This document shows, in pieces, positions 50 to 33,333 of a DNA stretch of 52,653 nucleotides. A program made the position numbers and the translations under genes. Source of the DNA: a virus; the UHGV virus genome UHGV-0083175; one strand, written 5' to 3'. Positions within the stretch are counted from its first letter, which is position 1, and each line of letters starts with the position of its first letter. The notes under the pieces were generated by a model that did not search any database, was not told the origin of the DNA, and worked only from the letters and a program-made list of their open reading frames with translations.

Positions 50-331
50 ATGGAAGAATTAAGAATATTTCTCAATTCTCTTTCGTCAGATGAACAGCGT
101 ATGTTTGCATGTGAGTGTGGTACTAGCATCGGTTATCTAAGAAAAGCATTGAGTAAAGGTCAAGTGTTAGGGGCATCGTTATGTGTCCTTATTGAGCGAG
201 CCAGTAATGGTGAAGTTACACGTCAGCAACTACGGCCTTTTGATTGGATGAACATTTGGCCTGAGCTGGAAGATACCCAAACGTTAACACAACCACTTTC
301 CAGGAGCTTGATTCATGAAAATCAAGCATGA
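50..331 (+). CDS. Cro/YdaS-family helix-turn-helix regulator
   Basis: 93-aa ORF; HTH-like segment GYLRKALSKGQVLGASLCVLIERASNGEVT resembles YdaS/Cro-type prophage regulators; first gene of the early rightward block. Confidence 0.55.
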   Translation: MEELRIFLNSLSSDEQRMFACECGTSIGYLRKALSKGQVLGASLCVLIERASNGEVTRQQLRPFDWMNIWPELEDTQTLTQPLSRSLIHENQA

Positions 332-752
332 ACATATCCGCATGGCAATGAATGCGTGGCTGCTTTATCCGAGGGTAGGGCGCAAAAAAATCGCTGATGA
401 TATAGCGACAGCATATTTTGAGCTTGAAATGACTTATCCACCAATGCATGACACCTCTACGACAGAGGGTATTGGATTGAACATACAAAATATTTTTCGC
501 TGGCTTGAAAAGGATACGCCTGATGCTGTTGAAAAAATTCAGGCACTAATTCCGGCTATCCTGACTGTTCTTCCGCGTGAACTGCGTTATCACCTCAGTA
601 TTTTTGACACTGTTGAGCGCCGTGCATTACTGGCGGCGCAGGAAGCGTTGAGCACGGCAATTGATGCACATGATGATGCAGTCCAGGCCGTTTACCGGAA
701 AGCGTATTTCAGCGACAGCGGGTCATCCGGCGAATCTGTTGTGGTGCATTGA
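315..752 (+). CDS. CII/YdaT-like prophage regulatory protein
   Basis: 145-aa ORF with AGGAG RBS; sits between Cro-like and replication genes as in Rac-type ydaS-ydaT-ydaU blocks. Confidence 0.4.
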   Translation: MKIKHEHIRMAMNAWLLYPRVGRKKIADDIATAYFELEMTYPPMHDTSTTEGIGLNIQNIFRWLEKDTPDAVEKIQALIPAILTVLPRELRYHLSIFDTVERRALLAAQEALSTAIDAHDDAVQAVYRKAYFSDSGSSGESVVVH

Positions 753-838
753 TATTTATGCCAGACCCCTGCTGATTCTGTTGATTGGGGAATCACAGAA
801 TATCACCAGAGGATGGTTCGTCACAAGATGAGGCAATT

Positions 839-1849: not shown

Positions 1850-2303
1850 ACAGCAAATCCGTCTGGTCTGCCGTCAGTGCATGGACCGCTGCCGGGCGGG
1901 TGAAACGTGGCCCCCGGACCTGGCTGAGTTTGTTGCGCTGATTTCGGAGAGTGGGGCAAATCCATTTGGTCTTACGGTGGATGCAGTGATGGAAGAGTAC
2001 CGGCGCTGGCGCAATGAATCCTGGCGATACGACGGGAGTGATAAATACCCGTGGCCACAGCCTGTGCTGTACCACATCTGCCTCGAAATGCGTACCAGAG
2101 GGATTGAGCGCCAGATGACGCAGGGTGAGTTAAAACGACTTGCGGAACGGCAACTGACGAAATGGGCAAAGCATGTTGGTAACGGGATGAGTGTTCCGCC
2201 AGTGCGACGACAACTGGAAGGGGCGAAACACCCGCAAGGGCCAACGCCAATTGAACGGCTGAAACAGGAATACGAACGCCGGAAGGCAGCTGGTTTTATT
2301 TGA
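1641..2303 (+). CDS. lambda P-like replication protein (helicase loader)
   Basis: 220 aa; C-terminal DKYPWPQPVLYHICLEMRTRG...GELKRLAERQL parallels lambda gpP; GGGGG RBS before ATG 1641; overlaps the upstream ORF by ~209 nt. Confidence 0.65.
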   Translation: MQHQVARHHGQFRKSGQHANSGNVTTDLSATETAWKLWELMGEVYSNRWTQKNGAAPSKLWIAQIGAMTEQQIRLVCRQCMDRCRAGETWPPDLAEFVALISESGANPFGLTVDAVMEEYRRWRNESWRYDGSDKYPWPQPVLYHICLEMRTRGIERQMTQGELKRLAERQLTKWAKHVGNGMSVPPVRRQLEGAKHPQGPTPIERLKQEYERRKAAGFI

Positions 2304-2336
2304 ATCTGAGAAACGATTTTGTCGGAGGAAATTTTA

Positions 2337-3053
2337 ATGGAAACCGTATTTGACGCACTGAAAGCACTGAAAAGAGCCTCTTCACAGGTAGTGGCGGCCC
2401 GCCTTGGAATCAGCCGTGAAGATGCGGTCAACGAACTGTGGAAACTGAAGCGCCGCGGTGAAGCGGATAACAAGGGTTCGATGTGGTGGCTGATTCAGGC
2501 TGGTGAAAGTGAACCGGTGTCACCGGTACCGAAAGTGACAGCGCAAATGCTGATTAAGGCGATTGAACAACATGGCCCACAAACGGCAGATGAGCTGGCA
2601 CTGATGTTCGGGATTACCTCCCGCCGGGCGAATTCATCGCTGGCCATGGCAATCAGCAAAGGGCGTCTGATTCGCGTGAATCAGGGCGGTAAATTTCGTT
2701 ACTGCATACCGGGCGCTGATTTACCGGCAGAGCCGGAAGCTGCATCCGTAGCGGAAACAGATGGTAAAGCCTTTCCTCAGCCAGCAGGTGTTGCGTTACC
2801 AGTCCGGGAAACGACGACACAGGAAGAAATGAAAACAGAAATCGTGGAAGACATTGTGAAGTTACAGCCATCGGTCACCGAAACGAAAGCAGATGACCTG
2901 ATTCTACCATCGCTGCATGTGGCTAACCGCGAGCTGCGCCGGGCAAAAGGTCAGGTTCAGAAGTGGGAGCGTGTCTGCGCCGCGCTGCGGGAACTGAACA
3001 AACACAGGGATATTCTCCGGGATATTACCGCCACCAGAGAGCTGCTGCGGTGA
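2337..3053 (+). CDS. hypothetical phage protein
   Basis: ORF 2319..3053; ATG 2337 has a GGAGGA RBS; no recognised catalytic motif. Confidence 0.45.
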
Positions 3054-10195: not shown

Positions 10196-10235
10196 TATTG
10201 CAGGATTAGTTACGTACCGTTATTATCCTGCGCCC

Positions 10236-10310
10236 GGCCCTTTAGCTCAGTGGTGAGAGCGAGCGACTCATAATCGCCAGGTCGCTGGTTCAAATCCAGC
10301 AAGGCCACCA
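10236..10310 (+). tRNA. tRNA with CAU anticodon (ileX-like tRNA-Ile2/Met), acceptor stem one nt short
   Basis: Hand-folded cloverleaf: D-arm GCTC/GAGC, anticodon loop CTCATAA, T-arm GCTGG-TTCAAAT-CCAGC, 3' ACCA; 3' acceptor strand AAGGCC versus expected AAGGGCC. Confidence 0.55.
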
Positions 10311-10319
10311 TATCACATA

Positions 10320-10396
10320 CCGCCATTAGCTCATCGGGATAGAGCGCCAGCCTTCGAAGCTGGCTGCGCGGGGTTCGAGTCCTCGATGGCGGTCCA
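10320..10396 (+). tRNA. tRNA-Arg (anticodon UCG)
   Basis: Complete 77-nt cloverleaf: acceptor CCGCCAT/ATGGCGG, anticodon loop CTTCGAA, T-arm CGGGG-TTCGAGT-CCTCG, 3' TCCA. Confidence 0.8.
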
Positions 10397-21538: not shown

Positions 21539-22102
21539 GTGCTGACAACGCAAAAACGAAAATTTGCGCTGGCGCTCATGTCCGGGAAAAACAAAACAGC
21601 GTCAGCCATTGCCGCCGGTTATTCGGCGAAGACAGCCAGGGTTAAAGGCTCGCAGCTGGCAAAAGATCCGGAGGTGCTCGCGTTTATAGCCCGTAAGCAG
21701 TGCGAGACGGTAGAGGTGGATGAGGTTCCTGTTTACCGGCAGAAAAAATCAGAGCAGGAGGATAAACCCCGTCGCCGTGAGGCGGCTGCAATACCACAGC
21801 CGGACGAAACAAATCCGGAGATGCCTCTGCCCGTGGTGATATCTCCTGGTATTGAGTATATGGATGACGGTCTTCCCGATCCGGTGAAAGCGATGGGGCG
21901 TCTTCTGGTGGAGAACATTAATACCGACCCCAGGCTGGCGCTGGATGTGGCTTATAAGCTGGCACAGTTCACGCACCACAAAAAAGGGGATGCCGGTAAA
22001 AAATCGGCAAAAGGTGACGCGGCGAAAAAAGCGGCTAACCGTTTTGCGGTGCCACCACCCCCCCGACTGGTGGTGAATAATGATAATGAGGGCAGCGGAT
22101 GA
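21539..22102 (+). CDS. terminase small subunit
   Basis: N-terminal HTH KRKFALALMSGKNKTASAIAAGYSAKTARVKGSQLAKDPEV; directly upstream of the terL N-terminal fragment. Confidence 0.8.
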   Translation: MLTTQKRKFALALMSGKNKTASAIAAGYSAKTARVKGSQLAKDPEVLAFIARKQCETVEVDEVPVYRQKKSEQEDKPRRREAAAIPQPDETNPEMPLPVVISPGIEYMDDGLPDPVKAMGRLLVENINTDPRLALDVAYKLAQFTHHKKGDAGKKSAKGDAAKKAANRFAVPPPPRLVVNNDNEGSG

Positions 22103-22380
22103 TACCTGTGTGGAGCACGGCCTGCCCGGACTGGGCAGAGCGCCTGAAAAAGGGGCTGTCGATTATTCCGGCTCCGATTTACCCGGACCAGGCCGCACAT
22201 GCCCTGGCGATTTTTAAACAACTGCGGATTGTGGATGCACCGGGCAGCCCGACGTTCGGGGAGTCCTGTGCACCGTGGGTGTTTGATCTGGTGGCTGCCC
22301 TGTTTGGCTCCTACGATGCGCAGACCGGTGTACGCCATATAAAGGAAGTGTTCATTCTGATACCGAAAAATAATAGATAA
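22099..22380 (+). CDS. terminase large subunit, N-terminal fragment (gene split by satellite insertion)
   Basis: 93 codons ending ...KEVFILIPKNNR*; the remaining terL sequence resumes in frame ~9.5 kb downstream (...IPKKNSKSTLAAG...). Confidence 0.7.
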   Translation: MIPVWSTACPDWAERLKKGLSIIPAPIYPDQAAHALAIFKQLRIVDAPGSPTFGESCAPWVFDLVAALFGSYDAQTGVRHIKEVFILIPKNNR

Positions 22381-22543
22381 TAAAAAAACAAATAAAGTGT
22401 TTATTTGTTTTTTTCTACGTTTTATCAAATAGTTATGGTTATCTTTGCTCTATGTTTTTATGTGTTGCTAACGGCAGATTTTAACGCTTTGTTGTTGACA
22501 TGGACTAACCGATGAACCATAAACTTTATCTGTAGGGGCATTT

Positions 22544-23779
22544 ATGCTAATCAAACCGTTAAGCCATGTTGAAGTAAAGAACGCAAAACCAAAGGATAAA
22601 GATTACTCGCTTCATGATGGATTTGGGTTGTTGTTATATGTTTCAAGAAAAGGCTGTAAAACATGGCGTTTCAGGTATCAGCACCCCGACACCAAAAAAA
22701 GACAAACGCTTACCATTGGTCGTTATCCAGATTATTCAATAGCTGAGGCAAGAGAGGAAAGGGATAAAGCAAGGAAATTACTTTCAAGAGGTGTGGATCC
22801 TAATGAGTCTAAGCGCAAGGCAAAATCTGAACGAATTATGCTGAGGTCACAGACCTTTGAAAAAATAACAAATAACTGGTTTGAATTGTATTTAAAGGGA
22901 AGCAGAAGGGAAAATACAGTAAAAACAGTTAGCAGAGTTATTAAAGTTTATATTATTCCTGATTTTGGGGGTTGGACGATTTATGATATACGTGCTGATA
23001 ATGTATTGTCAGTTATTAGAAAATATGACGAAACGCCTGCACAGCAACGAAAAATAGTACAGGTTATGCGTCTTGTTATGGATTATGCCGTGAATGCTGG
23101 AATTGTTCAGTTTAATCCGTTGTCTCGTATTCATAAAGCGCTTCCACCTATGGAAGAGAAAAGCTTTAAGGCGCTGCCCATAGAAAGATTACCCGCTTTT
23201 CTTAATTGGCTTGAGTCAGAAAGTTGTCATCCATCAATAACATATGGTCTTCTTTTTATGATGCTGACAATGACCAGACCTAACGAGGCATTAGGTGCCA
23301 AATGGTCAGAACTGGACGTTGACAGAAAACTATGGACCATTCCAGCAGAGAGGATGAAGGGGAAAAGAGAACACATTATTCCTTTATCTTTACAGGCTGT
23401 TGAAGTGATAATGCGAATGAGAAAAATAAAACAAAGTGAGTATGTTTTTTTTGGTGCTCATTCAGTTGCAAAGGCAATAACGAGAGATGCTATTGTCAGT
23501 AGGGTTAATAAAAGCGAGTTTGCAAAGGAAATGACAGTACACGGATTCAGGTCAATGTGGAGCACATTACTCAATGAAGAGGGATTTAACCCCGATGTTA
23601 TAGAGGCTGCACTTGCACATAAGAGCGGAAATACTGTAAGGGATATTTATAACAGGACGTCATATATTGAACAGCGGGTAATAATGATGCAATGGATAGG
23701 TGATTTTGTCGATTCTGCAAGACGTGGGGTTATTGTTAGGACGCATGGTAAACGCGGTTTAAAATTGGTAAATGAATAA
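22544..23779 (+). CDS. int: tyrosine integrase (P4-type)
   Basis: 411 aa; P4-integrase-type N-terminus and C-terminal catalytic domain (HGFRS...LAH...Y); adjacent to the left junction. Confidence 0.85.
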   Translation: MLIKPLSHVEVKNAKPKDKDYSLHDGFGLLLYVSRKGCKTWRFRYQHPDTKKRQTLTIGRYPDYSIAEAREERDKARKLLSRGVDPNESKRKAKSERIMLRSQTFEKITNNWFELYLKGSRRENTVKTVSRVIKVYIIPDFGGWTIYDIRADNVLSVIRKYDETPAQQRKIVQVMRLVMDYAVNAGIVQFNPLSRIHKALPPMEEKSFKALPIERLPAFLNWLESESCHPSITYGLLFMMLTMTRPNEALGAKWSELDVDRKLWTIPAERMKGKREHIIPLSLQAVEVIMRMRKIKQSEYVFFGAHSVAKAITRDAIVSRVNKSEFAKEMTVHGFRSMWSTLLNEEGFNPDVIEAALAHKSGNTVRDIYNRTSYIEQRVIMMQWIGDFVDSARRGVIVRTHGKRGLKLVNE

Positions 23780-23791
23780 GGTGTACAATAT

Positions 23792-23998
23792 ATGAATGAT
23801 ATAAATAATAGTCAGATTTTGTTGCGTGATGATGTGATGAAAAAATTGCGATACAACAACGCGGCTGCTTTTCATATGTTTTTTAACAGAACGCCGGACT
23901 TTCCAAAGCCCTTCAAGATAGGCCGTCGCAATGCCTGGTATGAAGAGGATGTGCAAAATTGGCTTGATGAACAGCGAAGAAAAGCCCTTGAGGAGTGA
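23792..23998 (+). CDS. alpA: AlpA-family excisionase / transcriptional regulator
   Basis: 68 aa; FPKPFKIGRRNAWYEEDVQNWL matches the AlpA/Xis HTH signature; immediately downstream of int. Confidence 0.7.
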   Translation: MNDINNSQILLRDDVMKKLRYNNAAAFHMFFNRTPDFPKPFKIGRRNAWYEEDVQNWLDEQRRKALEE

Positions 23999-24056
23999 AC
24001 GTAAAAGAACAGGCGTCCTTAAAGGTCGCCTGTTATGTAGTAGTGGAATATTACAA

Positions 24057-24419
24057 TCATGTTTTTTTTGATGCTATGTAAGCAAGAATGCACGGTTCCT
24101 TTGCCAGTTGTGACCCTTTCGATCTGGCTGTTTTCGCACTGTATCCAGCAAGAATAGCGCACTGTGTCTGATTCAGCCCTTTCATCATGTAATCAGCAAA
24201 TTTCTTTTTTTGCTTCGTCAGCTTGTTTGTTTGGTCGTTTTTATCATCGTTTGCGGTAAAAACATTAGATGTGGTCTTAAGCTGATGTTTACAGGCTTCA
24301 ATTACCCACGATGAGAAGTTGGAGTGCGCTTTATCTCTTTCTATGCGTTTTTCAATATCAGCTAATAAGTCAGGCGGGAAGCGGATCCCCTTAAGTATCG
24401 CTTTGCGTGTTTTGTCCAT
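24057..24419 (-). CDS. RHH domain fused to a terS-like HTH domain (putative satellite regulator)
   Basis: N-terminal GIRFPPDLLADIEKRI...NFSSWVIEACKHQL (RHH); C-terminal KKKFADYMMKGLNQTQCAILAGYSAKTARSKGSQLAKEP near-identical to the helper TerS N-terminus. Confidence 0.55.
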   Translation of the reverse strand: MDKTRKAILKGIRFPPDLLADIEKRIERDKAHSNFSSWVIEACKHQLKTTSNVFTANDDKNDQTNKLTKQKKKFADYMMKGLNQTQCAILAGYSAKTARSKGSQLAKEPCILAYIASKKT

Positions 24420-24692
24420 TCATGGCCCCAAAATAAGTAGTGTTAACTTGTTACTATTTAACAGTTTTTGAGGGTGTGTTAAACAAAAAACTGGTTTGTG
24501 TTTAACGAAAATCGCTTCGTGTTAAACACGTTGCCTAGTTAGTGGGGACAGATGACGAGTTGATCAAACCTGCCGGATAACAGGCAAAGAAAAGGCCACC
24601 TGTCACGGTGGCCCTTCGACACAAATTTCGCGTTATCCCCAACGCATGAGCATCGCCGACAATGCCACATTTACGGCTGGTGGACAAGGCTA

Positions 24693-24920
24693 TCAGCCAG
24701 GCGGTCGGTTTTTAGTGGCTTTTAACCGCCGTGGGTATTTCTCGACAAAATCTTCAAGGGCAAATTTTTCTGGTGGCATTAAGCGCGGCGCTGGTGGTGG
24801 TATTTTTGTTCTGGTTAGTTCTTCCTCAACTCTGGCGCAGGCTTCTGACTGCCTTTGCCGGATGATTTCATCATCTTGCGTTTGCGTGTCTTGTATTGGT
24901 GATAGTGTGTTGTTGGTCAT
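24693..24920 (-). CDS. hypothetical protein
   Basis: 75-aa minus-strand ORF downstream of the small RHH gene; weak RBS. Confidence 0.3.
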   Translation of the reverse strand: MTNNTLSPIQDTQTQDDEIIRQRQSEACARVEEELTRTKIPPPAPRLMPPEKFALEDFVEKYPRRLKATKNRPPG

Positions 24921-24977
24921 GATACTGCCCTGTAAAGCAATGCGCCGTAGTACCTCACACCACGGCGCTGATAGTGA

Positions 24978-25157
24978 TTATTCTGATTCTTTGGCCTTGC
25001 GGCGCTGGCGGCGTTTGATCTCGCCTTTTGCTGCCGTAACTAGAAATCCGGCGGTACTTTCGCCAGGTTCTTTAAGTTGCTCAATATCGGTCATTACCTC
25101 ATGCGGGATTCTGACCGTTGTCATTTGTGATTTTGCGTTCTTTGCACCTGTTGCCAT
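24978..25157 (-). CDS. small DNA-binding protein (possible satellite repressor)
   Basis: 59-aa ORF with AGGAGA RBS (MATGAKNAKSQMTTVRIPHEVMTDIEQL...); faces a divergent promoter region containing inverted repeats. Confidence 0.45.
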   Translation of the reverse strand: MATGAKNAKSQMTTVRIPHEVMTDIEQLKEPGESTAGFLVTAAKGEIKRRQRRKAKESE

Positions 25158-25177
25158 TTCTGGTTCTCCTGATAATC

Positions 25178-25270
25178 GGTGTATTTCAGTATACGCAAAA
25201 AAAAAGATAAAAAAAGTCTTGCGGTGTATTTCACCTGAATGTAGATTTAAAAATGAAGGTGAAATACACC
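25178..25270. promoter_or_regulatory. operator-like inverted repeats in the satellite divergent control region
   Basis: GGTGTATTTCACC (25223-25235) and its exact reverse complement GGTGAAATACACC (25258-25270), plus a third half-site GGTGTATTTCAG at 25178. Confidence 0.45.
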
Positions 25271-25343
25271 TAAAACAACAACGCCCCGCAGTGATGGGAA
25301 CACATACGGGGCGTCTAACCAACAACGTAAACGAGGAGCCGTT

Positions 25344-25541
25344 ATGGTTGCCGTAAATCATATACCACACCTTGTACACACACAAACGGCCTTTGTGTGG
25401 CGTTTTCTGGCACTGAGTGCCGGAGAATCTCAAATCATCCACGTAACCGCCTGGACGGAACGCGAAGCGCGTAACCGTTGCCCGTCCGGTTGTGTTGCTG
25501 TATTTGCCGCCCGTATTCGTCAGGAGGTGCGCCATGATTAA
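25344..25541 (+). CDS. hypothetical protein (first gene of the satellite rightward operon)
   Basis: 65-aa ORF with GAGGAG RBS. Confidence 0.35.
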   Translation: MVAVNHIPHLVHTQTAFVWRFLALSAGESQIIHVTAWTEREARNRCPSGCVAVFAARIRQEVRHD

Positions 25542-25746
25542 TCTGTCACTTACTGACCTTAACCGCATTCAGTTTCGTGAGAAATTCACAGGGCAGCTAC
25601 TGGTCAATGTGGATAAAGGTCGCGTGGTGTGTAATTACCACTTACCAGATGAAGCAATTGTCGCCACAAGGGAATCATTACAGGAAATCACAAAACGTGC
25701 CGGAATGATTAACACGAATATTCAGGGGATGCTTTATGCACAATAA
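25534..25746 (+). CDS. hypothetical protein
   Basis: Internal ATG with CAGGAGGTG RBS; 70 aa. Confidence 0.4.
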   Translation: MINLSLTDLNRIQFREKFTGQLLVNVDKGRVVCNYHLPDEAIVATRESLQEITKRAGMINTNIQGMLYAQ

Positions 25747-25975
25747 AACCACACCGGACGCAGCCGCCGAAGCCATCAAAACGCTGATGCACGCGCTGAT
25801 TGATATTTCTGTTATCGCGGACAGGGCACATAAGCACGCCACCAGCGAAACAGAATATGCCGGTGCTTTCGTTCCTCACTCACTGGCTGTCATGCAATTT
25901 AGTGCTGATACGGCGCTGAATGAGGCCAAAGCTATCCTGATTGCTGATTGTGAAAATGGGGGGGGTTATGCGTGA
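25736..25975 (+). CDS. hypothetical protein
   Basis: 79-aa ORF, translationally coupled to neighbours. Confidence 0.35.
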   Translation: MHNKTTPDAAAEAIKTLMHALIDISVIADRAHKHATSETEYAGAFVPHSLAVMQFSADTALNEAKAILIADCENGGGYA

Positions 25976-26201
25976 TGATCGTTTTAATTCCCTGAAACAG
26001 GAATTTTCCGGCGTTCCTGATGATGCGGCTGATGCGCTTTCGTCAATGCCAGAACTTATTAGAGCGGCTTTTTTCTTACTTTCCACGAGAGAATATAAAT
26101 CAACGGGGCTTGATGTACTGAATATCGCCGCCGATTATGCGGAATATGTGGCAGAGGCGCGTTATAGAAGAAAATTTCCTGAGGATGTAAGCCATGCGTG
26201 A
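25968..26201 (+). CDS. hypothetical protein
   Basis: Internal start MRDDRF... of ORF 25941..26201. Confidence 0.35.
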   Translation: MRDDRFNSLKQEFSGVPDDAADALSSMPELIRAAFFLLSTREYKSTGLDVLNIAADYAEYVAEARYRRKFPEDVSHA

Positions 26202-26427
26202 TATTTACCACCAAACAATAGACCGCGCATTTCTTGCACTTTCTCACAGTGAAAACATGATGGAAATATTGCGCATATGGCTTGAAACACTTGGCGACAA
26301 TGAACGCGACAAACAAAAATCAAGAATTGCCACGGCATTAATAACGCTTCTTGAGCCTGTAATAATGGAACTGCAAGAAATAGATCTATTGCACGACAGA
26401 TATAAAGAACAGCACATCGGAGAATAA
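26194..26427 (+). CDS. hypothetical protein
   Basis: 77-aa ORF overlapping the upstream stop. Confidence 0.35.
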   Translation: MRDIYHQTIDRAFLALSHSENMMEILRIWLETLGDNERDKQKSRIATALITLLEPVIMELQEIDLLHDRYKEQHIGE

Positions 26428-26432
26428 AAATA

Positions 26433-26732
26433 ATGAAACTTAAATATTCTGGCTTAACTGCCAGTGGCAACACTCACCCTAAATTTACGCGCGGTGATAT
26501 TTACCGCGACCAGTACGGCGGCACGGTAATGATTAAGGGCGTGGCGGGACGGTGCGTAACTTACCGCCGTGAAGGTTACGAATATGATTGCGTGATGCCT
26601 GTTTATCAGTTCCGGCGTGATTTTTCTCTGGTACAGACCGCGCCGCATAACGTGCCCACCAGCAACGCCAGGGCACGGGCAAACATCCAGAAGCTGAAAA
26701 CCATGATTAACGGATTCAGGGGTAAAAAATGA
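26433..26732 (+). CDS. hypothetical protein
   Basis: 99-aa ORF immediately upstream of the primase-helicase gene. Confidence 0.4.
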   Translation: MKLKYSGLTASGNTHPKFTRGDIYRDQYGGTVMIKGVAGRCVTYRREGYEYDCVMPVYQFRRDFSLVQTAPHNVPTSNARARANIQKLKTMINGFRGKK

Positions 26733-28126
26733 AACTGGCACCGAATGTAAAACTGTTACCGAAAGATAAACACACCGAAGCGGTTATTTTTGCGGGTGAT
26801 AATGCTCACTCATTTGCAGAGCACTACATCATTGCACAGGCCAAAAAAGCAGGCGATCCAGTCCCTCCCGTTTACCTGGGGCGTTATCAGTTAAGCGAAC
26901 TGGATAACTTGCAGATTGTTGATAAAGGTCGGTTCAGGGCGAAAGTGATACGTGCCGGAAATATTGACGAAGTGCAGTTGTTAACCATCGCCACGAAACT
27001 GGCAATCGCAGGAGTCCAGGAAGCGCGCCTGTTTTCTGAAAATTTCGAATTGCTGGAGGAATGGAGCGACCAGCTTACACGGCTTAGGGAGACATGGGAA
27101 CGCGGGGAAAGCCTGAGCCACCAGCGAAAAACAAAGCTACCGATGAGCGTTGGATCTGCCGGATACGACACGCAATTAGATTACGTGGTAAAGGGGATTA
27201 TTCCGGCATCGTCGCTATGCAGCATATACGGGGCGAGCGGTTCATATAAATCGTTCCTTGCGGGTTCGTGGGCGTGTCACGTTTCCACGGGCCGCCAGTG
27301 GGGAGGCCGCAGGGTTGCACATGGTGCAGTTCTCTATGTGGTTGGTGAAGGCGGTATTGGTGTTCCGCGTCGTGTAAAAGCCTGGGAGGTTGTGCACGGT
27401 GAGCAGGTGAAAAATCTGTATCTGGTAAACCGTCCCATCTTTCCGGCTGTCCCGCTTGATGTTGATGAAATGGTTATCGCTGCCCGCCAGGTGGAACGGG
27501 AAACCGGTAAACCTGTACGCATGATTATTCTGGATACGCTGGCGCGTTGCTTTGGCGGCAATGATGAAAATGACTCCCGCGACATGGGGGCATTTATCCG
27601 TGGTTGTGACGAGCTTAAACGGCGCACAGGGGCCACTGTGCTGGTGGTTCACCATTCCGGCAAGGATGAAACAAAGGGGGCGCGTGGTTCCAGTGCATTT
27701 CGTGCTTCGCTGGATGCTGAATACCGGATACGCAGGGAGGACGCAGGAAGCGAAGCGCTGGTTATCTCATGCACCAAAATGAAGGACGCGGAGGAACTCA
27801 AAGAGGCTGCCTATGATTTGCGGGTGGTGGAGCTTTTTACCGACGCTGACGGGGAGTTAATCACGTCGCTGGTGGTGGTGGATAAGTCGCGCCCTCCCGT
27901 TGAACTGGAGCGCATCGAAGAGGCAGGCAACAAGACGGAAAACCATACCGCGCTATGGGGGTGTATCCGTTCACGCACACAGAACGGCGACAAGTGCACG
28001 ATCCCGCTGTTACGTGATGACATGAAAAAACTGGGGTACGAAATAAAGCACTTCCGGCGCTGGCTGGGCAAGCTGGAAAAAGACGGCGTTATCTATGTTG
28101 ACGGCGATGATGTAGGGCCACTGTAA
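26729..28126 (+). CDS. satellite replication protein (RecA-fold primase/helicase-type ATPase)
   Basis: 465 aa; Walker A-like GASGSYKSFLAG, Walker B region MIILDTLARCFGGNDEND and VLVVHHSGKD. Confidence 0.75.
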   Translation: MKLAPNVKLLPKDKHTEAVIFAGDNAHSFAEHYIIAQAKKAGDPVPPVYLGRYQLSELDNLQIVDKGRFRAKVIRAGNIDEVQLLTIATKLAIAGVQEARLFSENFELLEEWSDQLTRLRETWERGESLSHQRKTKLPMSVGSAGYDTQLDYVVKGIIPASSLCSIYGASGSYKSFLAGSWACHVSTGRQWGGRRVAHGAVLYVVGEGGIGVPRRVKAWEVVHGEQVKNLYLVNRPIFPAVPLDVDEMVIAARQVERETGKPVRMIILDTLARCFGGNDENDSRDMGAFIRGCDELKRRTGATVLVVHHSGKDETKGARGSSAFRASLDAEYRIRREDAGSEALVISCTKMKDAEELKEAAYDLRVVELFTDADGELITSLVVVDKSRPPVELERIEEAGNKTENHTALWGCIRSRTQNGDKCTIPLLRDDMKKLGYEIKHFRRWLGKLEKDGVIYVDGDDVGPL

Positions 28127-28328
28127 AAAGTGGGGGGCAAAAGTGGTGGGCATGGGGAATTTAACAAAATTTAAACACGACCCCCCACTTTTTGACCTGT
28201 ATACATCCCAAAAAGTGGGGAGCAAAAAAATACTTATGAAACAGCATGATAAAAATTACAAATCCCACGCCTTTAACGAGATGGGGAATTGTGAAAAGTG
28301 GGGAGTAAAAGTGGGTATAGGTGGGGAG
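28127..28328. repeat. iteron cluster (candidate satellite replication origin)
   Basis: Repeated AAAGTGGGG(A/G) motifs at 28127, 28140, 28210, 28294, 28307, 28320 plus inverted copy CCCCCCACTTTTTG at 28181, directly after the replication gene. Confidence 0.5.
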
Positions 28329-28580
28329 ATGACACAAAAACGCAGAGACAGAACACAGCCAAAATATAAAGCGTTAGACATGACAGAGCACGCTTTAAAG
28401 GTGGCAATCAGAACGATAGACCGCCACGCGGGGGAAGGATACGCGAAGGAACATCCCGACCTGATAAGCGCATTCATGACCACAGCGGCGGCAAACTTTG
28501 CCACGCTGACAGAACGGGAGATTGCCGAAGCGGAACAGGTAACAACCATCAACGTTAAAACCGGAGAGTTGGAATCATGA
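28329..28580 (+). CDS. hypothetical protein
   Basis: Internal start MTQKRRD... chosen because upstream codons lie in the iteron region. Confidence 0.35.
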   Translation: MTQKRRDRTQPKYKALDMTEHALKVAIRTIDRHAGEGYAKEHPDLISAFMTTAAANFATLTEREIAEAEQVTTINVKTGELES

Positions 28581-28882
28581 GCGAACCAAAATTTGGTGAA
28601 AAACTTTACAAGCACAACGGACGGATCACGATTCTGCAAATAAGCGCAGCTACACCAGGCTGGTGGGTTGAAACAGACGAAGGATCCTCACCCGTGGCAT
28701 CATGGGCGCTTTGTGCGCTTAGTTACCCTGACCGCGATGTGTATCAGGATATTCTGCCTGTGATATCCACTGACAAAGGCATGAAACCCGTAGACATCAA
28801 AAACATGGGTTTTCAGTGCGTAATGCTCACTGAAAAAATGATGGAAGAGATGAAAAAGAACAACGCCGGATCGCTTCACTGA
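28577..28882 (+). CDS. hypothetical protein
   Basis: 101-aa ORF overlapping the upstream stop. Confidence 0.4.
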   Translation: MSEPKFGEKLYKHNGRITILQISAATPGWWVETDEGSSPVASWALCALSYPDRDVYQDILPVISTDKGMKPVDIKNMGFQCVMLTEKMMEEMKKNNAGSLH

Positions 28883-28891
28883 GGTGGCAAT

Positions 28892-29290
28892 ATGACAGCA
28901 CAAATTGCAGCTTACGGGCGGCTGGTGGACGACCCGCAGGTAAAACAGACCAGCAAGGGCACACCGATGACGCTGGCGCGTATGGCGGTATCTTTGCCAT
29001 GCAGCCAGGCACAGGACGGACAGGCGACGTTATGGTTATCGGTCATCGCATTTGGCAAACAGGCCGACTTCCTGGCTAAACATCAAAAAGGAGATGTTGC
29101 CAGCGTATCCGGCACGATGCAGGTAAGCCAGTGGACAGGCCAGAACGGCGAAACGCGGCAGGGCTGGCAGGTTATCGCAGACAGCGTAATCAGTGCCCGA
29201 GGCGGGAACAGACGCAAAACCACAGGCACACAGGGTAATCAGCCACCAGCGGGAGGCGATGACCCTTACGGTGATGGTATTCCGTTCTGA
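28892..29290 (+). CDS. ssb: single-stranded DNA-binding protein
   Basis: OB-fold-like core (LARMAVS...LWLSVIAFGKQAD...) and acidic C-terminal tail ending DDPYGDGIPF. Confidence 0.7.
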   Translation: MTAQIAAYGRLVDDPQVKQTSKGTPMTLARMAVSLPCSQAQDGQATLWLSVIAFGKQADFLAKHQKGDVASVSGTMQVSQWTGQNGETRQGWQVIADSVISARGGNRRKTTGTQGNQPPAGGDDPYGDGIPF

Positions 29291-29300
29291 GGGGGTGAGG

Positions 29301-29573
29301 ATGGTACATGACCGCATAGCGGAGGAACTCGAGGCGAAAGGATTTTACCGGAGGGCGGCGGCGCGATGGGGTGAAGTCATGCAGCTGGTGGAGACAGACA
29401 AGGAACGGTATCAGGTTACGATGCGACGGCTGGAATGTTCCAGGAAGGCACAGAAGCCACCGGAGCCGCCGGATAACTTCGGAGACCTGAGAAAGGCAGT
29501 CGATCGCACTTATGCTGAAATGGGTATAGATGGTGCAGGCGATGAAGTATGGCGTAATTACCCAGACAGCTAA
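29301..29573 (+). CDS. PerC-family transcriptional regulator-like protein
   Basis: Internal ATG 29301; AEELEAKGFYRRAAARWGEVM resembles the PerC/Pch N-terminal motif. Confidence 0.45.
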   Translation: MVHDRIAEELEAKGFYRRAAARWGEVMQLVETDKERYQVTMRRLECSRKAQKPPEPPDNFGDLRKAVDRTYAEMGIDGAGDEVWRNYPDS

Positions 29574-29579
29574 GCACAT

Positions 29580-29603
29580 AGCCGGAGCAATCCGGCTTTT
29601 TTT
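29580..29603 (+). terminator. rho-independent terminator
   Basis: AGCCGGA-gcaa-TCCGGCT stem followed by TTTTTTT. Confidence 0.6.
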
Positions 29604-29691
29604 CGATCTCACATATCTTTAAAAATGGTTGATTGATTATAATCTATCGAAAATAATGATTATGAGATGATAAGCATCAGGAGGAAACAAA

Positions 29692-29886
29692 GTGGAACAG
29701 ATAAAGCAAAGCGCTACCGTGATGATTGATCACGAGATCCTAAACGAGCTTAAAAAACTTCAATTCGATGTTATTCGCCGGATGAATGAAGCTGGTATAT
29801 ACGGCAGAGCCGCCACGCCAACAGTAGGCCATCTTGCTCGCGTGCTGTTACGCGAACGCCTGGGCATTGCAACAGGTGAGGAATAA
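29692..29886 (+). CDS. hypothetical protein
   Basis: GTG start after AGGAGGA RBS; 64 aa. Confidence 0.35.
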   Translation: MEQIKQSATVMIDHEILNELKKLQFDVIRRMNEAGIYGRAATPTVGHLARVLLRERLGIATGEE

Positions 29887-29888
29887 CA

Positions 29889-30050
29889 ATGGTTATCACA
29901 GAACGCGAGGCAAGCATCATTAAAGCCATTGGCGAGGAAACAAGAGACACGATAGCGCCATTAATGGAAAAGATCGCAGAGCTTGAGACACGAATAAACA
30001 AGCTGAGTGATGAAGTTGAAGGCCTGATCTCGTTACTCGGTGAGCAATGA
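29889..30050 (+). CDS. small protein resembling the N-terminus of the helper head-associated repeat protein
   Basis: 53 aa, MVITEREASIIKAIGEE... versus MNERELSIIRALGEEF... at 36907; ends at the satellite cos-like site. Confidence 0.35.
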   Translation: MVITEREASIIKAIGEETRDTIAPLMEKIAELETRINKLSDEVEGLISLLGEQ

Positions 30051-30112
30051 CAGGGGGGGGGGAGTGTTCCGGCCGGAAAGTCGATCGCCCTGGACACCGC
30101 CCCCCGTCTCAT
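30051..30112. other. candidate cos site of the satellite
   Basis: G-run, GTCGATCGCCCTGGACACC core and C-run, paralogous to 21250..21312. Confidence 0.45.
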
Positions 30113-30180
30113 TCGTAGAAAATTTTGCTTTTCAAAAAAGTTACACGAAAAGTTACACCCCCTCAAAACGAGGTTTTTGC

Positions 30181-30669
30181 ATGGCATTAACGACCAAAAA
30201 AAAGCGGTTTGCTGATGCGTTATCAAGGGGCGCAAATCCCACGGAAGCCGCTATACATGCGGGATACAGCGAAAAGACCGCAAGGGTTAAAGGCTGGCAG
30301 CTATCCAACGATCCTGAGGTGAAAAAGTATCTTAAGGTTGTCACTCCTGATGTAACTTTTCAGGTTACAAAACCGAAAAAAGTTACAAAGAAAGTTACCG
30401 AAAAAGTTACACCGGAACGGGCATCAATCAGCACCATAGAACGGATGGACAACGGCTTGCCCGACCCTATCAAAGCTATGGGCAGGATACTGGCTGACAA
30501 CATAGACACAGATCCAAAACTGGCTTTAGATGCCGCGTTTAAGCTGGCCCAGTTCACCCACCGCAAGATCGGCAGCATTGGGAAAAAAGAGGTTAAAAAA
30601 CTCAATGCCGCGAATGTCTCCTCAAATCGGTTCCCCATCCCTAAGCCACCAACAGGCTTAAAACACTGA
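30181..30669 (+). CDS. terminase small subunit (satellite copy)
   Basis: Internal ATG 30181; N-terminal HTH KKRFADALSRGANPTEAAIHAGYSEKTARVKGWQLSNDPEV and C-terminal LALDAAFKLAQFTH homologous to the helper TerS. Confidence 0.75.
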   Translation: MALTTKKKRFADALSRGANPTEAAIHAGYSEKTARVKGWQLSNDPEVKKYLKVVTPDVTFQVTKPKKVTKKVTEKVTPERASISTIERMDNGLPDPIKAMGRILADNIDTDPKLALDAAFKLAQFTHRKIGSIGKKEVKKLNAANVSSNRFPIPKPPTGLKH

Positions 30670-30680
30670 GGTAGCGAACT

Positions 30681-30842
30681 ATGAACGAATACATCACAGA
30701 CCCTATTGATGTACTCACGGAAATCATGAACGACAAGCAGCAGCCAACCGAAATACGGTTACAGGCTGCCGCTGTTCTGATGCCATATTTTCACGAAACT
30801 CTAACCCCATGTTACCAGGAGGAAGAAGATGATGATTTCTAA
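30681..30842 (+). CDS. hypothetical small acidic protein
   Basis: 53-codon ORF between satellite terS and the MCP-like gene; not in the supplied track. Confidence 0.3.
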   Translation: MNEYITDPIDVLTEIMNDKQQPTEIRLQAAAVLMPYFHETLTPCYQEEEDDDF

Positions 30843-31755
30843 AAACATGAAAGGCGTGTCGGCAGTTCGCGCCGCCAGCGTGCTTACATCGTGTAAATTC
30901 AGCCATGCAGACGCAATTGAAATGACGAAAAAAAATGATCCGGCAGTATCGAAATTTCTTGAAAAATCCATTGTTGCCGGAATGACTACGGATAATATGC
31001 CGTCGCTGGTGGCAGAGCCGATAGTAAGAGAGCTTGGCGAGTATATTTTTTCGCAGTCTGTACCAGGCAAGCTAATCAGCAGCGCGCTGAATCTTCCGTT
31101 TGGCGCAAAATTGCAGTCAATATCAGGCAAGGGTAGTAAATGGCTTAAAGAAGCCGAAGAAATCCCTGTCAAAGAGGGAGAAGTAAACGAAAGTGCGCTA
31201 AAACTGTGCAAACTTGGCGCTATTGTGATGCTGAATAACGAGCTAATCAAATTTAGCACCCCTGGTACCAATTCAGCGATCAGAGACTTGATCACATCGG
31301 AATCGGTGAAAGAAATAGATAAAAAATTTCTTTCCAGTGACCAGGAGTTGGCGGGCGTATCCCCTGAGGGCGTGCTTAATGGTGCTGATGAGGCCGAAAA
31401 CTTCATAGAGCTTTTCAAAAAGCACATAGCGAACGGTAACACGCTTGCCACGTCGTCGCTAATCTTGCCCGTAGAAAACGCCTTACAGCTTACTGATGCT
31501 GAGTTCTGGCAGATAGAGCTTTTGAGAATACCGGTAATTGTGAGCGAACAGGCGGATCGCATGATGCTGATAGACGCTCAAAAGCTGATTATTAACGTTG
31601 AAGCCACGGTTATAACCCCAACTGATGAGGCGGTAATAAAAACCGAATCAGGGACGGTTAGCCTTTTCCAGAATGACGCTACAGCGTTCAGGGCAATCAC
31701 CTATTGCGGATGGCAAAAACTCGATAAGGCCGTCACCGTTCTGGCGCAATCTTGA
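30829..31755 (+). CDS. major capsid protein homolog (HK97-fold MCP domain only)
   Basis: 308 aa with AGGAGGA RBS; aligns along its length with the MCP portion of the helper protease-MCP fusion (AGMTTD/AGTTTD, LGAIVMLNNELIKFSTPG / VSAIAVLTEELIRFSSPA, IPVIVSEQ / LPVIVSQY). Confidence 0.65.
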   Translation: MMISKNMKGVSAVRAASVLTSCKFSHADAIEMTKKNDPAVSKFLEKSIVAGMTTDNMPSLVAEPIVRELGEYIFSQSVPGKLISSALNLPFGAKLQSISGKGSKWLKEAEEIPVKEGEVNESALKLCKLGAIVMLNNELIKFSTPGTNSAIRDLITSESVKEIDKKFLSSDQELAGVSPEGVLNGADEAENFIELFKKHIANGNTLATSSLILPVENALQLTDAEFWQIELLRIPVIVSEQADRMMLIDAQKLIINVEATVITPTDEAVIKTESGTVSLFQNDATAFRAITYCGWQKLDKAVTVLAQS

Positions 31756-31974
31756 TGTAGTGCGCCGCATTACTGGTTATGTGAATGCGGCGCATAGGGC
31801 CTACGAAAAACAAAATTAGTTTACGTTATCTTATGTAACCATATTTAACGGAGAAGACTAAAACGCGGACTATTTAGTGTCAGTGCGTGAGCCTAACAGC
31901 ATAATAAACAAGATATTAAGATAGCTTTACGCATACCCAAAAAAAACAGCAAGTCCACGCTGGCTGCCGGGATC

Positions 31975-33333
31975 ATGATGACGGCGCTGTTACTGAACTG
32001 GCGGCAGGCGGCGGGCTACACCATTCTGGCCCCGACCGTGGAGGTGGCGGCTAATGCCTTCAATCCTGCCAGGGATATGGTACGACGGGACGATGATCTG
32101 GATGACCTCTGTCAGGTGCAGACACATATCCGGACCATCACCCATCGGGTGACGGACACCACCCTGAAGGTGGTGGCAGCCGATCCGAATACGGTGTCCG
32201 GTATCAAGTCCGTGGGGACACTGATTGATGAACTGTGGCTGTTTGGCAAGCAGTACAAAGCGGAGGACATGTTACGTGAAGCCATAGGTGGCCTTGCCTC
32301 CCGCCCGGAAGGGTTTGTGGTGTATACGACCACCCAGTCGAATGAACCGCCCGCCGGGGTGTTCAGACAGAAACTGCAGTACGCCCGGGATGTGCGCGAC
32401 GGCAAAATTCATGATCCGCACTTTCTGCCGGTGATATTTGAGCATCCGCCGGAGATGGTGGAGCGCGGTGAGCACCTGCTGATGGAAAACCTCGCCATGG
32501 TCAATCCGAATCTCGGTTATTCGGTGGATGAGGCCTTTCTGTACCGGGAGTATCGTAAAGCCCGGGAAGCCGGTGAAGATACATTCCGGGGGTTCATGTC
32601 AAAACACGCCAATGTGGAAATTGGTCTTGCCCTGCGTTCTGACCGCTGGGCGGGTGCGGATTTCTGGGAGCAGCAGGGCAGGCGCGTCAGCCTGGACGAT
32701 ATTCTGCAGCGCGCTGATGTGGTGACGGTGGGGATTGACGGCGGGGGCCTGGATGATCTGCTGGGAATGTACGTGATTGGCCGTGACAGGGAAACCCGCG
32801 AATGGCTGGGCTGGGGCCATGCCTGGGCGCATGAAACCGCGGTGGTCAGACGGAAGAGTGAGGCATCCCGTTTTCAGGATTTTGTGGCCTGTGGAGACAT
32901 GACGATTGTCCGTCGGGTCGGGGATGACACGGCGGAAGTGGCGGAGTATGTGCGTCGTATTCATGAGGCTGAGTTACTGGATCATATCGGTATTGACCCG
33001 TCAGGTGTGGGGCAGATTCTGGATTCACTGGCGGAAGCCGGGATCCCCGACGGAATTGTTGTGGGGATAAGCCAGGGCTGGAAGCTGGGCGGGGCCATCA
33101 AAACCACCGAGCGCAAACTGGCTGAGGGAGTGCTGGTGCATGGTGGTCAGCCACTGATGGCCTGGTGCGTTGGCAATGCCCGGGTGGAGCCTAAAGGTAA
33201 CGCCATCCTTATTACCAAACAGGCCAGCGGACGGGGGAAAATTGACCCGCTGATGGCGCTGTTCAATGCGGTATCCCTGATATCCCTGAATCCGGAGCCC
33301 AAAAAGAAAGAATATGCGGTTTTTTTCATATAA
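31975..33333 (+). CDS. terminase large subunit, C-terminal portion (split gene)
   Basis: Frame open upstream to 31897 with no start codon, encoding ...IPKKNSKSTLAAGIMM (Walker A-like); LIDELW Walker B, nuclease motifs VTVGIDGGG and IGIDPSG. Confidence 0.7.
   Translation: MMTALLLNWRQAAGYTILAPTVEVAANAFNPARDMVRRDDDLDDLCQVQTHIRTITHRVTDTTLKVVAADPNTVSGIKSVGTLIDELWLFGKQYKAEDMLREAIGGLASRPEGFVVYTTTQSNEPPAGVFRQKLQYARDVRDGKIHDPHFLPVIFEHPPEMVERGEHLLMENLAMVNPNLGYSVDEAFLYREYRKAREAGEDTFRGFMSKHANVEIGLALRSDRWAGADFWEQQGRRVSLDDILQRADVVTVGIDGGGLDDLLGMYVIGRDRETREWLGWGHAWAHETAVVRRKSEASRFQDFVACGDMTIVRRVGDDTAEVAEYVRRIHEAELLDHIGIDPSGVGQILDSLAEAGIPDGIVVGISQGWKLGGAIKTTERKLAEGVLVHGGQPLMAWCVGNARVEPKGNAILITKQASGRGKIDPLMALFNAVSLISLNPEPKKKEYAVFFI

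What the first reader, a model, noticed from the sequence alone, without database searches (positions are those of the whole stretch)
28127..28328. Iteron cluster after the satellite replication gene
At least six direct copies of AAAGTGGGG(A/G) and one inverted copy lie directly downstream of the primase-helicase gene, a likely satellite origin of replication.
Basis: partly seen in the sequence, partly recalled or inferred. Interest (0 to 1): 0.4.

Follow-up and report, generated by a model that had tools for sequence, protein, structure and literature searches.

The report
Replication origin of a phage satellite
The repeat cluster is real and is almost certainly the replication origin of a small phage-parasitic island (PICI), where the island's own helicase binds through a C-terminal DNA-binding domain; this is an expected feature for such islands, though one amino acid appears to set which repeat sequence is recognised.

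Summary
The repeats are real. Four of the five exact AAAGTGGGG copies in the 52.6-kb window lie in 28127-28303, three direct and one inverted. Two 1-mismatch copies, one 2-mismatch copy and three half-sites sit beside them, around a 59-nt stretch of 32% GC. They begin one base after the stop codon of a 465-aa RepA-family helicase, which has no detectable primase domain. The gene belongs to a ~9.6-kb PICI inserted in the terL gene of a lambdoid prophage.

In about 80 related loci from Enterobacterales the same layout follows the rep stop: direct, direct, inverted, direct, AT-rich, inverted, direct array. The fourth base of the core GTG[N]G tracks one residue, H441 in the window, which sits just before the recognition helix of a predicted C-terminal winged-helix domain. 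H or K goes with G, N with A, and S with C. No locus in either set contradicts this (84 loci, then 59 distinct domain-plus-origin combinations).

So this is a RepA-bound iteron origin of the published PICI type. The one tested E. coli PICI origin (EcCICFT073) uses a different Rep family. I rate it a new member of a known kind. There is no experimental proof. Interest is moderate.

The parts
22360..31947 (+). The whole satellite (PICI, ~9.6 kb): integrase, HTH regulator, Icd-like, DUF4222, RepA, origin, two small ORFs, SSB, PerC-like, TerS, capsid-like protein. It is inserted in the prophage terL gene. Core repeat ATACC(G/C)AAAAA at 22360-22373 and 31933-31947.
   Evidence: Pfam/PHROG; annotated relatives; junctions; aligned to an intact terL
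26729..28126 (+). rep gene: 465-aa RepA-family (SF4, RecA-fold) helicase. N-terminal alpha/beta domain of unknown type, helicase core (residues 147-314), C-terminal winged helix. No primase domain detected.
27926..28123 (+). Coding region of the C-terminal winged-helix domain (residues 400-465: H404-418, H425-434, recognition helix H442-451, beta-hairpin wing 455-464)
28049..28051 (+). Codon CAC = His441, immediately before the recognition helix. This residue co-varies with the 4th base of the iteron core GTG[N]G.
28127..28135 (+). Iteron L1, AAAGTGGGG, exact
28140..28148 (+). Iteron L2, AAAGTGGTG (1 mismatch), 13 nt after L1
   Evidence: the position is conserved in relatives
28152..28161 (+). 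Half-site ATGGGGAATT (left copy)
   Evidence: D8; follows the G-to-A switch in the O157 relative
28161..28181 (.). Short AT-rich spacer (24% GC)
28183..28191 (-). Inverted iteron, exact (CCCCACTTT on the + strand)
   Evidence: an inverted site at offset 45-65 is seen across related loci
28212..28220 (+). Iteron M, AAAGTGGGG, exact; 85 nt after L1 and 83 nt before R1 (about 8 helical turns each)
28222..28280 (.). AT-rich block (32% GC), the proposed unwinding region between the two iteron sets
   Evidence: a GC trough of 0.27-0.31 lies at the same offset in 78 distinct related loci
28264..28268 (-). Second inverted half-site (CCCAC) at the right edge of the AT-rich block
   Evidence: inverted sites at offset 130-145 in relatives
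28281..28290 (+). Half-site ATGGGGAATT (right copy)
   Evidence: D8
28295..28303 (+). Iteron R1, AAAGTGGGG, exact
28308..28316 (+). Iteron R2, AAAGTGGGT (1 mismatch), 13 nt after R1
28318..28326 (+). Degenerate copy R3, TAGGTGGGG (2 mismatches). It overlaps the Shine-Dalgarno of the next ORF, so its status as an iteron is ambiguous.
28329..28580 (+). First ORF after the origin (83 aa, phrog_1231, unknown function). Marks the right limit of the non-coding origin region.
   Evidence: annotated from the same ATG in relatives
28892..29290 (+). Satellite-encoded single-strand DNA-binding protein, a likely accessory of replication
   Evidence: Pfam SSB E=1.6e-16; phrog_44

Best explanation
The 28127-28328 region is the vegetative replication origin of a phage-inducible chromosomal island (PICI). 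The upstream gene encodes a RepA-type hexameric helicase that carries its own C-terminal winged-helix DNA-binding domain.

Proposed mechanism:
1. The winged helix recognises the 9-10 bp iterons (core AAAGTG-G-GG). Residue His441, at the start of the recognition helix, reads the fourth base of GTG[G]G.
2. RepA molecules bind the left set (28127-28220, including one inverted copy) and the right set (28264-28326). The two sets flank a 59-nt AT-rich block.
3. RepA oligomerises, melts the AT-rich block and loads itself as the replicative helicase.
4. Priming would come from the host, because this protein has no primase domain. The island's own SSB would coat the unwound DNA.

Shown computationally: the repeats and their enrichment, their conserved positions, the winged-helix fold, and the residue-base covariation. 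Inferred by analogy with SaPI Rep and EcCICFT073: melting, self-loading and origin firing.
For: 1. Enrichment far beyond chance.

2. The element is a PICI, and the same rep + repeat module sits in typical capsid-forming PICIs.

3. In six E. coli relatives the cores are conserved while the spacers diverge. The O157 relative changes G to A in every copy.

4. In 78 distinct loci from Xenorhabdus, Pectobacterium, Serratia, Morganella, Kosakonia, Citrobacter and others, sites occupy the same offsets after the rep stop: forward at 0-30, 75-95 and 135-200; reverse at 45-65 and 130-145. A GC trough lies at 100-130 and there is nothing beyond 200.

5. Residue-base covariation, first set: H goes with G in 12/14, K with G in 33/35, N with A in 25/27, S with C in 7/7. 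The exceptions have fewer than 2 copies. Second set, IMG/VR plus a Klebsiella record: H-G 34/34, N-A 16/16 plus 8 'KNM' alleles carrying GTGAG, S-C 1/1. There is no contradiction. The residue changes about 9 times on a helicase-core tree.

6. Within E. coli, H441N is the only winged-helix change at an otherwise constant position that accompanies the GTGGG-to-GTGAG switch.

8. Published PICI origins lie immediately 3' of rep and consist of two iteron sets around an AT-rich region; the EcCICFT073 rep-ori was shown to drive plasmid replication (PMC6092414). SaPI Rep binds iterons through a C-terminal winged helix (PMC9371898).

9. The syntenic intergenic regions of PICIs with a different Rep family carry different iterons: CTGTCTACC in EcCICFT073 and CTGTTCACC in L003.

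10. A related element is deposited as a 16,971-bp circular molecule.
Against: - No experiment exists on this element or on this Rep family.
- The tested E. coli PICI origin belongs to a different (D5-like primase) Rep family.
- The AT-rich block is only moderately AT-rich (32% GC).
- The helicase core of the AF2 model has low confidence, with pLDDT below 50 in residues 148-171, 272-284 and 311-392.
- The covariation could reflect co-inheritance of the winged-helix domain and origin as one module rather than a direct contact by residue 441. That would still imply binding.
- No primase was found, so how priming occurs is open.
- The last 'copy' may simply be a ribosome-binding site.
Confidence: 0.8

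Rival explanations
1. The repeats are RepA-binding sites, but they mainly serve regulation (autorepression, copy-number control, or control of the downstream SSB/PerC/packaging genes) and the origin lies elsewhere.
For: The covariation with the RepA winged helix shows binding, not initiation. The last copy overlaps the ribosome-binding site of the next ORF. Iterons of plasmids are known to double as control sites (general knowledge).
Against: The layout of two sets around an AT-rich block, immediately 3' of rep, matches functionally tested PICI/SaPI origins and is conserved across genera. No promoter-like site is found in the region. No second repeat cluster of this motif exists in the island.
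Confidence: 0.08
2. The repeats are a packaging signal (pac or TerS-binding site) of the satellite.
For: Satellites need a specific packaging site. The region is non-coding and repeat-rich.
Against: The same repeats follow rep in islands with unrelated packaging modules: a Terminase_2 TerS here, but P27-family TerS/TerL/HNH in the capsid-forming relatives. The repeats co-vary with RepA, not with TerS. A separate repeat cluster (AAAAGTTACAC) lies in the terS gene itself and is a better pac candidate.
Confidence: 0.02
3. The repeats are operators for another island regulator (AlpA-like HTH, PerC-like) or for a host or helper protein.
For: Covariation with those proteins was not tested. The island is transcribed rightward through this region (PMC6092414).
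Against: Covariation with a RepA residue is perfect in two sets of loci. The RepA N-terminal allele and the rest of the island vary independently of the repeats. There is no promoter-like or terminator-like site on the + strand.
Confidence: 0.05
4. Chance, low-complexity sequence, or part of a coding sequence (the mechanical ORF 28143-28580 with a GTG start).
For: A GTG-started ORF formally spans most of the region.
Against: Poisson P is about 1e-11. Relatives are annotated from the ATG at the position of 28329. The alignment shows single-base indels and divergence confined to spacers, not a codon pattern. There is no Rfam match.
Confidence: 0.01

Closest known systems
PICI/SaPI replication origins (SaPI1, SaPIbov1; E. 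coli EcCICFT073)
   Same: Located immediately 3' of the rep gene. Short iterons in two sets flanking an AT-rich region, with copies in both orientations. The initiator is itself a helicase with a C-terminal winged helix that reads the iterons (PMC6092414; PMC9371898). The site is syntenic with the tested EcCICFT073 origin: DUF4222, rep, repeats, small ORF, SSB, PerC.
   Different: The helicase here is a RecA-fold RepA/DnaB-like (SF4) protein. It is not the AAA+ SF3/MCM-like Rep of SaPIs, nor the D5-like primase-family Rep of EcCICFT073. The iteron sequence differs: AAAGTGGGG against CTGTCTACC. There is no fused or adjacent primase.
Satellite phage P4: alpha protein with ori/crr
   Same: A satellite with a single protein combining helicase and origin binding, and short repeats read by a C-terminal DNA-binding domain. 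The P4 details are from my own knowledge; P4 alpha and its origin are also mentioned in PMC6092414. A sister island in the same terL site (L003) carries a D5-type primase Rep with CTGTTCACC repeats, which I recall as resembling the P4 type I repeat.
   Different: The window protein has neither a primase nor a D5/SF3 helicase domain. Its repeats are unrelated, and they form one cluster right after the gene rather than two separated sites.
IncQ plasmid RSF1010 replication (RepA helicase, RepB primase, RepC iteron-binding initiator)
   Different: In RSF1010 the iterons are bound by a separate protein, RepC, and priming is done by RepB (my own knowledge). Here the helicase carries the DNA-binding domain itself, and no RepB or RepC homologue is found next to it.
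Iteron plasmids with Rep_3-type initiators (pPS10, F, RK2, R6K)
   Same: Direct repeats bound by winged-helix domains next to an AT-rich unwinding element.
   Different: No Rep_3-type initiator is present. No DnaA box above chance lies in the region. The repeats are 9-10 bp at spacings of 13 nt and about 84 nt, rather than regular ~22-bp tandem units. The initiator is a helicase.

Membership tests
PICI-type replication origin | Lies immediately 3' of the island's replication initiator gene | tested here: met
   The first iteron starts at 28127, one base after the rep stop codon at 28124-28126. The same holds in about 80 relatives.
PICI-type replication origin | [quoted passage not shown] | tested here: met
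   Left set 28127-28220, AT-rich block 28222-28280 (32% GC), right set 28281-28326. A conserved GC trough lies between the site clusters in 78 loci.
PICI-type replication origin | Iterons in opposite orientations on either side of the AT-rich region (SaPI description, PMC9371898) | tested here: inconclusive
   One exact inverted copy (28183) lies left of the AT-rich block. On the right edge there is only an inverted half-site (28264). Relatives show reverse sites at offsets 45-65 and 130-145. Most copies on both sides point the same way.
PICI-type replication origin | The host element is a PICI: integrase, AlpA-type regulator, own replicon, packaging or interference genes, no tail or lysis genes, about 10-15 kb, own att site | tested here: met
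   int, HTH, Icd-like, DUF4222, RepA, SSB, PerC-like, TerS and a capsid-like protein within 22360-31947 (~9.6 kb), bounded by an ATACCSAAAAA repeat.
PICI-type replication origin | The cognate Rep binds the iterons specifically | tested here: inconclusive
   Only indirect evidence: perfect covariation of a winged-helix residue with an iteron base in two sets of loci.
PICI-type replication origin | rep + ori drives autonomous replication; deleting ori abolishes it | not testable with these tools
   Needs the plasmid-maintenance assay used for EcCICFT073 (PMC6092414). Weak hint: a related element is deposited as a 16,971-bp circular molecule.
   [not shown]
P4 alpha / ori-crr system | D5_N/SF3 primase-helicase and TGTTCACC-type repeats | tested here: not met
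   The window protein has no D5 domains and its repeats are AAAGTGGGG. Both features are present in the sister island L003.
IncQ (RSF1010) replicon | Separate RepC iteron-binding initiator and RepB primase alongside the RepA helicase | tested here: not met
   Only the helicase core is shared. Neighbouring ORFs give no RepB or RepC match.
Rep_3-type iteron plasmid origin | Rep_3 initiator, DnaA box(es), regular ~22-bp tandem iterons | tested here: not met
   No Rep_3 hit. The only DnaA-box-like match in the region has one mismatch and is at chance level. Iteron spacing is 13 nt and about 84 nt.

The most novel reading that the evidence does not exclude
This replicon family may be a distinct class of self-loading initiator-helicase: a RecA-fold (SF4, RepA/DnaB-like) helicase fused to a winged helix. 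Its origin specificity would be set by a one-residue/one-base rule, with His or Lys reading G, Asn reading A and Ser reading C at the fourth base of GTG[N]G. That would define mutually non-cross-reacting replicon 'specificity groups' among satellites sharing a cell, and it could be reprogrammed by a single substitution together with matching iteron changes. I found no description of this Rep family or of this rule in the searchable literature. The iteron sequences in Fig. 2a of PMC6092414 could not be read.
Probability: 0.5. Interest if true: 0.55.

Novelty: new member of a known kind. Interest (0 to 1): 0.38.

Why it matters
It places the origin of a widespread family of E. coli and Enterobacterales satellites, including the capsid-forming PICIs that share this rep-ori module, at a precise 200-bp site.

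It corrects the gene label: a helicase-initiator without a primase. It also gives a directly testable rule, residue 441 against iteron base 4, for how these replicons keep their specificity. That rule bears on three questions: whether satellites in the same cell can coexist or are incompatible, how rep-ori modules are exchanged between islands, and how mini-replicons might be built from them.

As a type of feature it is expected for a PICI, so it is confirmatory rather than surprising.

Tried and rejected
- **Promoter/terminator scan of 27900-28500:** no promoter-like site, and only one chance-level terminator-like site on the minus strand inside rep. An operator or terminator reading gains no support.
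- **Rfam at permissive threshold:** no match.
- **DnaA boxes:** none above chance.
- **Motif search in the literature:** searching for AAAGTGGGG returned only unrelated primer or sequence hits. The cf-PICI preprint does not describe an origin. The supplements of PMC6092414 hold no iteron sequences, so I could not tell whether this motif appears in its Fig. 2a.
- **N-terminal 146 residues:** Pfam and NCBIfam found no primase or other family. BLASTP against the primase-bearing relative matched only the linker.
- **First script for locating rep in the loci:** it used too strict a regular expression and missed 24 loci. I replaced it with tblastn.
- **'No motif' loci in the second set:** eight loci proved to be a KNM allele that fits the rule.
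- **Loci with fewer than two copies:** L027, L040, L071, L076 and L080. In L071 the rep frame runs on past the usual stop. I did not examine these further, and they were not counted for or against the rule.
- **att search with 12-nt seeds:** found nothing. The short core was found by reading the junctions and aligning them to an intact terL.

Full report
**1. The observation**

Reading 27700-28800 and searching for AAAGTGGGGR gives three exact direct copies (28127, 28212, 28295) and one exact inverted copy (28182-28191). Two direct copies carry one mismatch (28140, 28308). A sixth direct copy (28318, TAGGTGGGG) needs two mismatches and overlaps the Shine-Dalgarno of the ORF starting at 28329. 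There are also two copies of ATGGGGAATT (28152, 28281) and an inverted half-site CCCAC at 28264.

Four of the five exact AAAGTGGGG in the whole 52.6-kb window, counting both strands, lie here. The rest of the window predicts 0.004 (Poisson P about 1e-11). Six of eleven AAAGTGG also lie here.

The exact copies L1, M and R1 are 85 and 83 nt apart, and tandem neighbours are 13 nt apart. GC is 24% in 28161-28181 and 32% in 28222-28280, against 47-56% in the repeat blocks.

**2. Context**

The gene ending at 28126 encodes a 465-aa protein. Its only Pfam domain is AAA_25 (residues 147-314, E=1.7e-43). RefSeq names its relatives 'helicase RepA family protein'. Its nearest solved relative by sequence is the hexameric helicase RepA of RSF1010 (1g8y, E=0.004).

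The surrounding genes are:
- integrase (22544-23779)
- an HTH regulator
- an Icd-like protein
- DUF4222 (26433-26732)
- RepA
- two small ORFs
- SSB (28892-29290)
- a PerC-like protein
- TerS (30040-30669)
- a capsid-like protein (30829-31755)

This is the gene order of Gram-negative PICIs (PMC6092414). The same rep-plus-repeats module, at 94-99% identity, sits in typical capsid-forming PICIs between rcnR and thiM in other E. coli strains.

In the window the island is inserted inside the terL gene of a lambdoid prophage. The core ATACC(G/C)AAAAA occurs at both junctions (22360-22373 and 31933-31947). I checked the junctions against an intact terL. The same arrangement is annotated in strain 90-3040.

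**3. Comparative test of the repeats**

An alignment of the intergenic region from six E. coli islands shows the cores AAAAGTGGG invariant at each repeat position while the spacers diverge. In the O157 island every copy reads GTGAG instead of GTGGG, which is a concerted change.

A scan of one genome per species returned 80 loci encoding relatives of RepA at 52-71% identity. They include Xenorhabdus, Pectobacterium, Serratia, Morganella, Pantoea, Kosakonia, Citrobacter, Kluyvera and Erwinia. In nearly all of them, the 200 nt after the rep stop hold the same layout.

Over 78 distinct sequences:
- forward sites pile up at offsets 0-30, 75-95 and 135-200
- reverse sites pile up at 45-65 and 130-145
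- mean GC falls to 0.27-0.31 at offsets 100-130
- no sites occur beyond offset 200

**4. Link to the protein**

The RepA alignment shows a nearly invariant helicase core. The N-terminal 140 residues come in two alleles that do not track the repeats: L002 has the other allele but the window-type repeats. The C-terminal 70 residues carry a few substitutions.

The residue preceding the motif F-x-R-W-L, His441 in the window (codon 28049-28051), matches the fourth base of the core GTG[N]G in the repeats:

| Residue | Base | First set | Second set |
|---|---|---|---|
| His | G | 12 of 14 loci | 34/34 |
| Lys | G | 33 of 35 | not seen |
| Asn | A | 25 of 27 | 16/16, plus 8 KNM alleles carrying GTGAG |
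| Ser | C | 7 of 7 | 1/1 (Klebsiella record) |

The first-set exceptions simply have fewer than two copies. The second set is 80 IMG/VR contigs plus a Klebsiella plasmid record, and it was not used to find the rule. I found no contradiction in either set.

On a tree built from the helicase core alone, the residue changes about nine times. So the pairing is not one inherited event. It could arise either by co-evolution or by exchange of the winged-helix-plus-origin module.

Within E. coli, H441N is the only winged-helix substitution at an otherwise constant position that accompanies the GTGGG-to-GTGAG switch.

**5. Fold of the C-terminus**

AlphaFold2 on a 21-sequence alignment gives a mediocre full-length model (pLDDT 69, with the core partly below 50). 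The C-terminal domain is confident: helices 404-418, 425-434 and 442-451, followed by a beta-hairpin at 455-464. Modelled alone it reaches pLDDT 88.

Foldseek against the PDB returns only winged-helix proteins at the top: HrcA, Fur, DtxR/IdeR, LexA, MotA, MepR, BlaI, ORC and the MCM8 WH domain. Probabilities are 0.9-0.99 and E-values 0.03-0.15.

His441 sits directly before the third helix, the recognition helix of this fold. That it touches the base is my inference.

**6. The 'primase' label**

**7. What is known**

[quoted passage not shown] It shows that the EcCICFT073 rep-ori fragment maintains a plasmid only when both rep and ori are intact. PMC9371898 describes SaPI Rep proteins as self-loading helicases whose C-terminal winged helix reads 5-6 bp iterons placed just after rep on both sides of an AT-rich centre.

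I fetched EcCICFT073. Its Rep is a 'DNA primase family protein' (D5-like domains in its L003 homologue). Its syntenic intergenic region carries many CTGTCTACC repeats. The island L003, in the same terL site as ours, carries CTGTTCACC. So each Rep family brings its own repeats to the same place in the gene order. The window's family (RepA/SF4 plus winged helix) is not the one that was tested.

I found no paper describing this Rep family's origin or the residue-base rule. The iteron sequences of Fig. 2a in PMC6092414 are not in the held text or supplements.

No genuine phage in the phage collection has a full-length homologue. The best matches are about 40% identical over the helicase core only. 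A few plasmid records do. One is a 16,971-bp circular Klebsiella record that is a capsid-forming-PICI-like element with GTGCGG repeats after a 'RKSFPRWL' RepA.

**8. Mechanism and rivals**

The best reading is a RepA-bound iteron origin. Winged-helix domains of RepA occupy the left and right arrays. The protein oligomerises across the AT-rich block at 28222-28280, opens it and loads itself. The host supplies priming, and the island's SSB assists. The binding step rests on the covariation. Melting and loading rest on analogy.

The rivals fare worse:
- **Purely regulatory RepA sites:** this does not explain the conserved two-array, AT-rich layout, and no promoter is detected.
- **Packaging site:** excluded, because islands with unrelated packaging modules share the repeats, and a separate repeat cluster lies in terS.
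- **Another regulator's operator:** this does not explain the covariation with RepA.
- **Chance or coding sequence:** excluded by the statistics, by the annotation of relatives and by the indel pattern.

**9. Verdict**

The feature is an expected part of a PICI, so I rate it a new member of a known kind. It belongs to an initiator family whose origin has not, as far as I could find, been described or tested. The residue-base rule is the one result that goes beyond confirmation. It is computational and needs the swap experiment.

Noticed in passing
window 22099-22380 and 31933-33333 (junctions 22360-22373 and 31933-31947): The ~9.6-kb PICI is inserted inside the terminase large-subunit gene of the surrounding lambdoid prophage, at the codons of the Walker-A region (..FILIPKKNSKST..). 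A short core ATACC(G/C)AAAAA lies at both ends. Excision should restore terL. The same split terL with an island between the halves is annotated in E. coli 90-3040. [quoted passage not shown]
   Followed up: partly
window 30134-30159 and 30376-30413: A second repeat cluster, AAAAGTTACAC, lies inside the island's terS gene (30040-30669): two tandem copies and then three, with a 12-nt period, 242 nt apart. It is a candidate TerS-binding or pac site.
   Followed up: no
[not shown]
   Followed up: partly
L008-L033, L046-L072 (for example L032 1930-4035, L048 2008-4041): Relatives in Xenorhabdus, Serratia, Pectobacterium and Morganella are about 700 aa, with Zn-ribbon and Toprim primase domains fused ahead of the same helicase and winged helix. 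The E. coli form therefore looks like a primase-less version of a primase-helicase-initiator.
   Followed up: partly
L088 (CP018459.1, whole record, 16,971 bp): A record deposited as a circular Klebsiella pneumoniae plasmid is in fact a capsid-forming-PICI-like element (integrase, RepA, capsid, head-tail adaptor, TerS/TerL) that also carries a tape-measure-like gene. It may be an excised, replicating island or an assembly artefact.
   Followed up: partly
L003 12107-12350; L087 7005-7240: Islands with the alternative D5-like primase-family Rep carry dense arrays of other repeats in the syntenic intergenic region: CTGTTCACC in 90-3040 (I recall the P4 type I repeat as similar) and CTGTCTACC in EcCICFT073. 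This shows exchange of rep + origin modules within an otherwise conserved gene order.
   Followed up: partly
window 30829-31755: A 308-aa protein with weak similarity to HK97-type major capsid proteins sits next to the island's terS, in an island that lacks portal, protease and terL. It could be a capsid-size-redirecting homologue rather than a true capsid protein.
   Followed up: no
window 10235-10396: tRNA-Met (CAT) and tRNA-Arg (TCG) genes lie in the prophage part of the window.
   Followed up: no
L027, L040, L071, L076, L080 (region after rep): A few related loci have fewer than two recognisable iterons after rep. In L071 the rep reading frame runs on past the usual stop. These may be decayed or rearranged replicons.
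   Followed up: no
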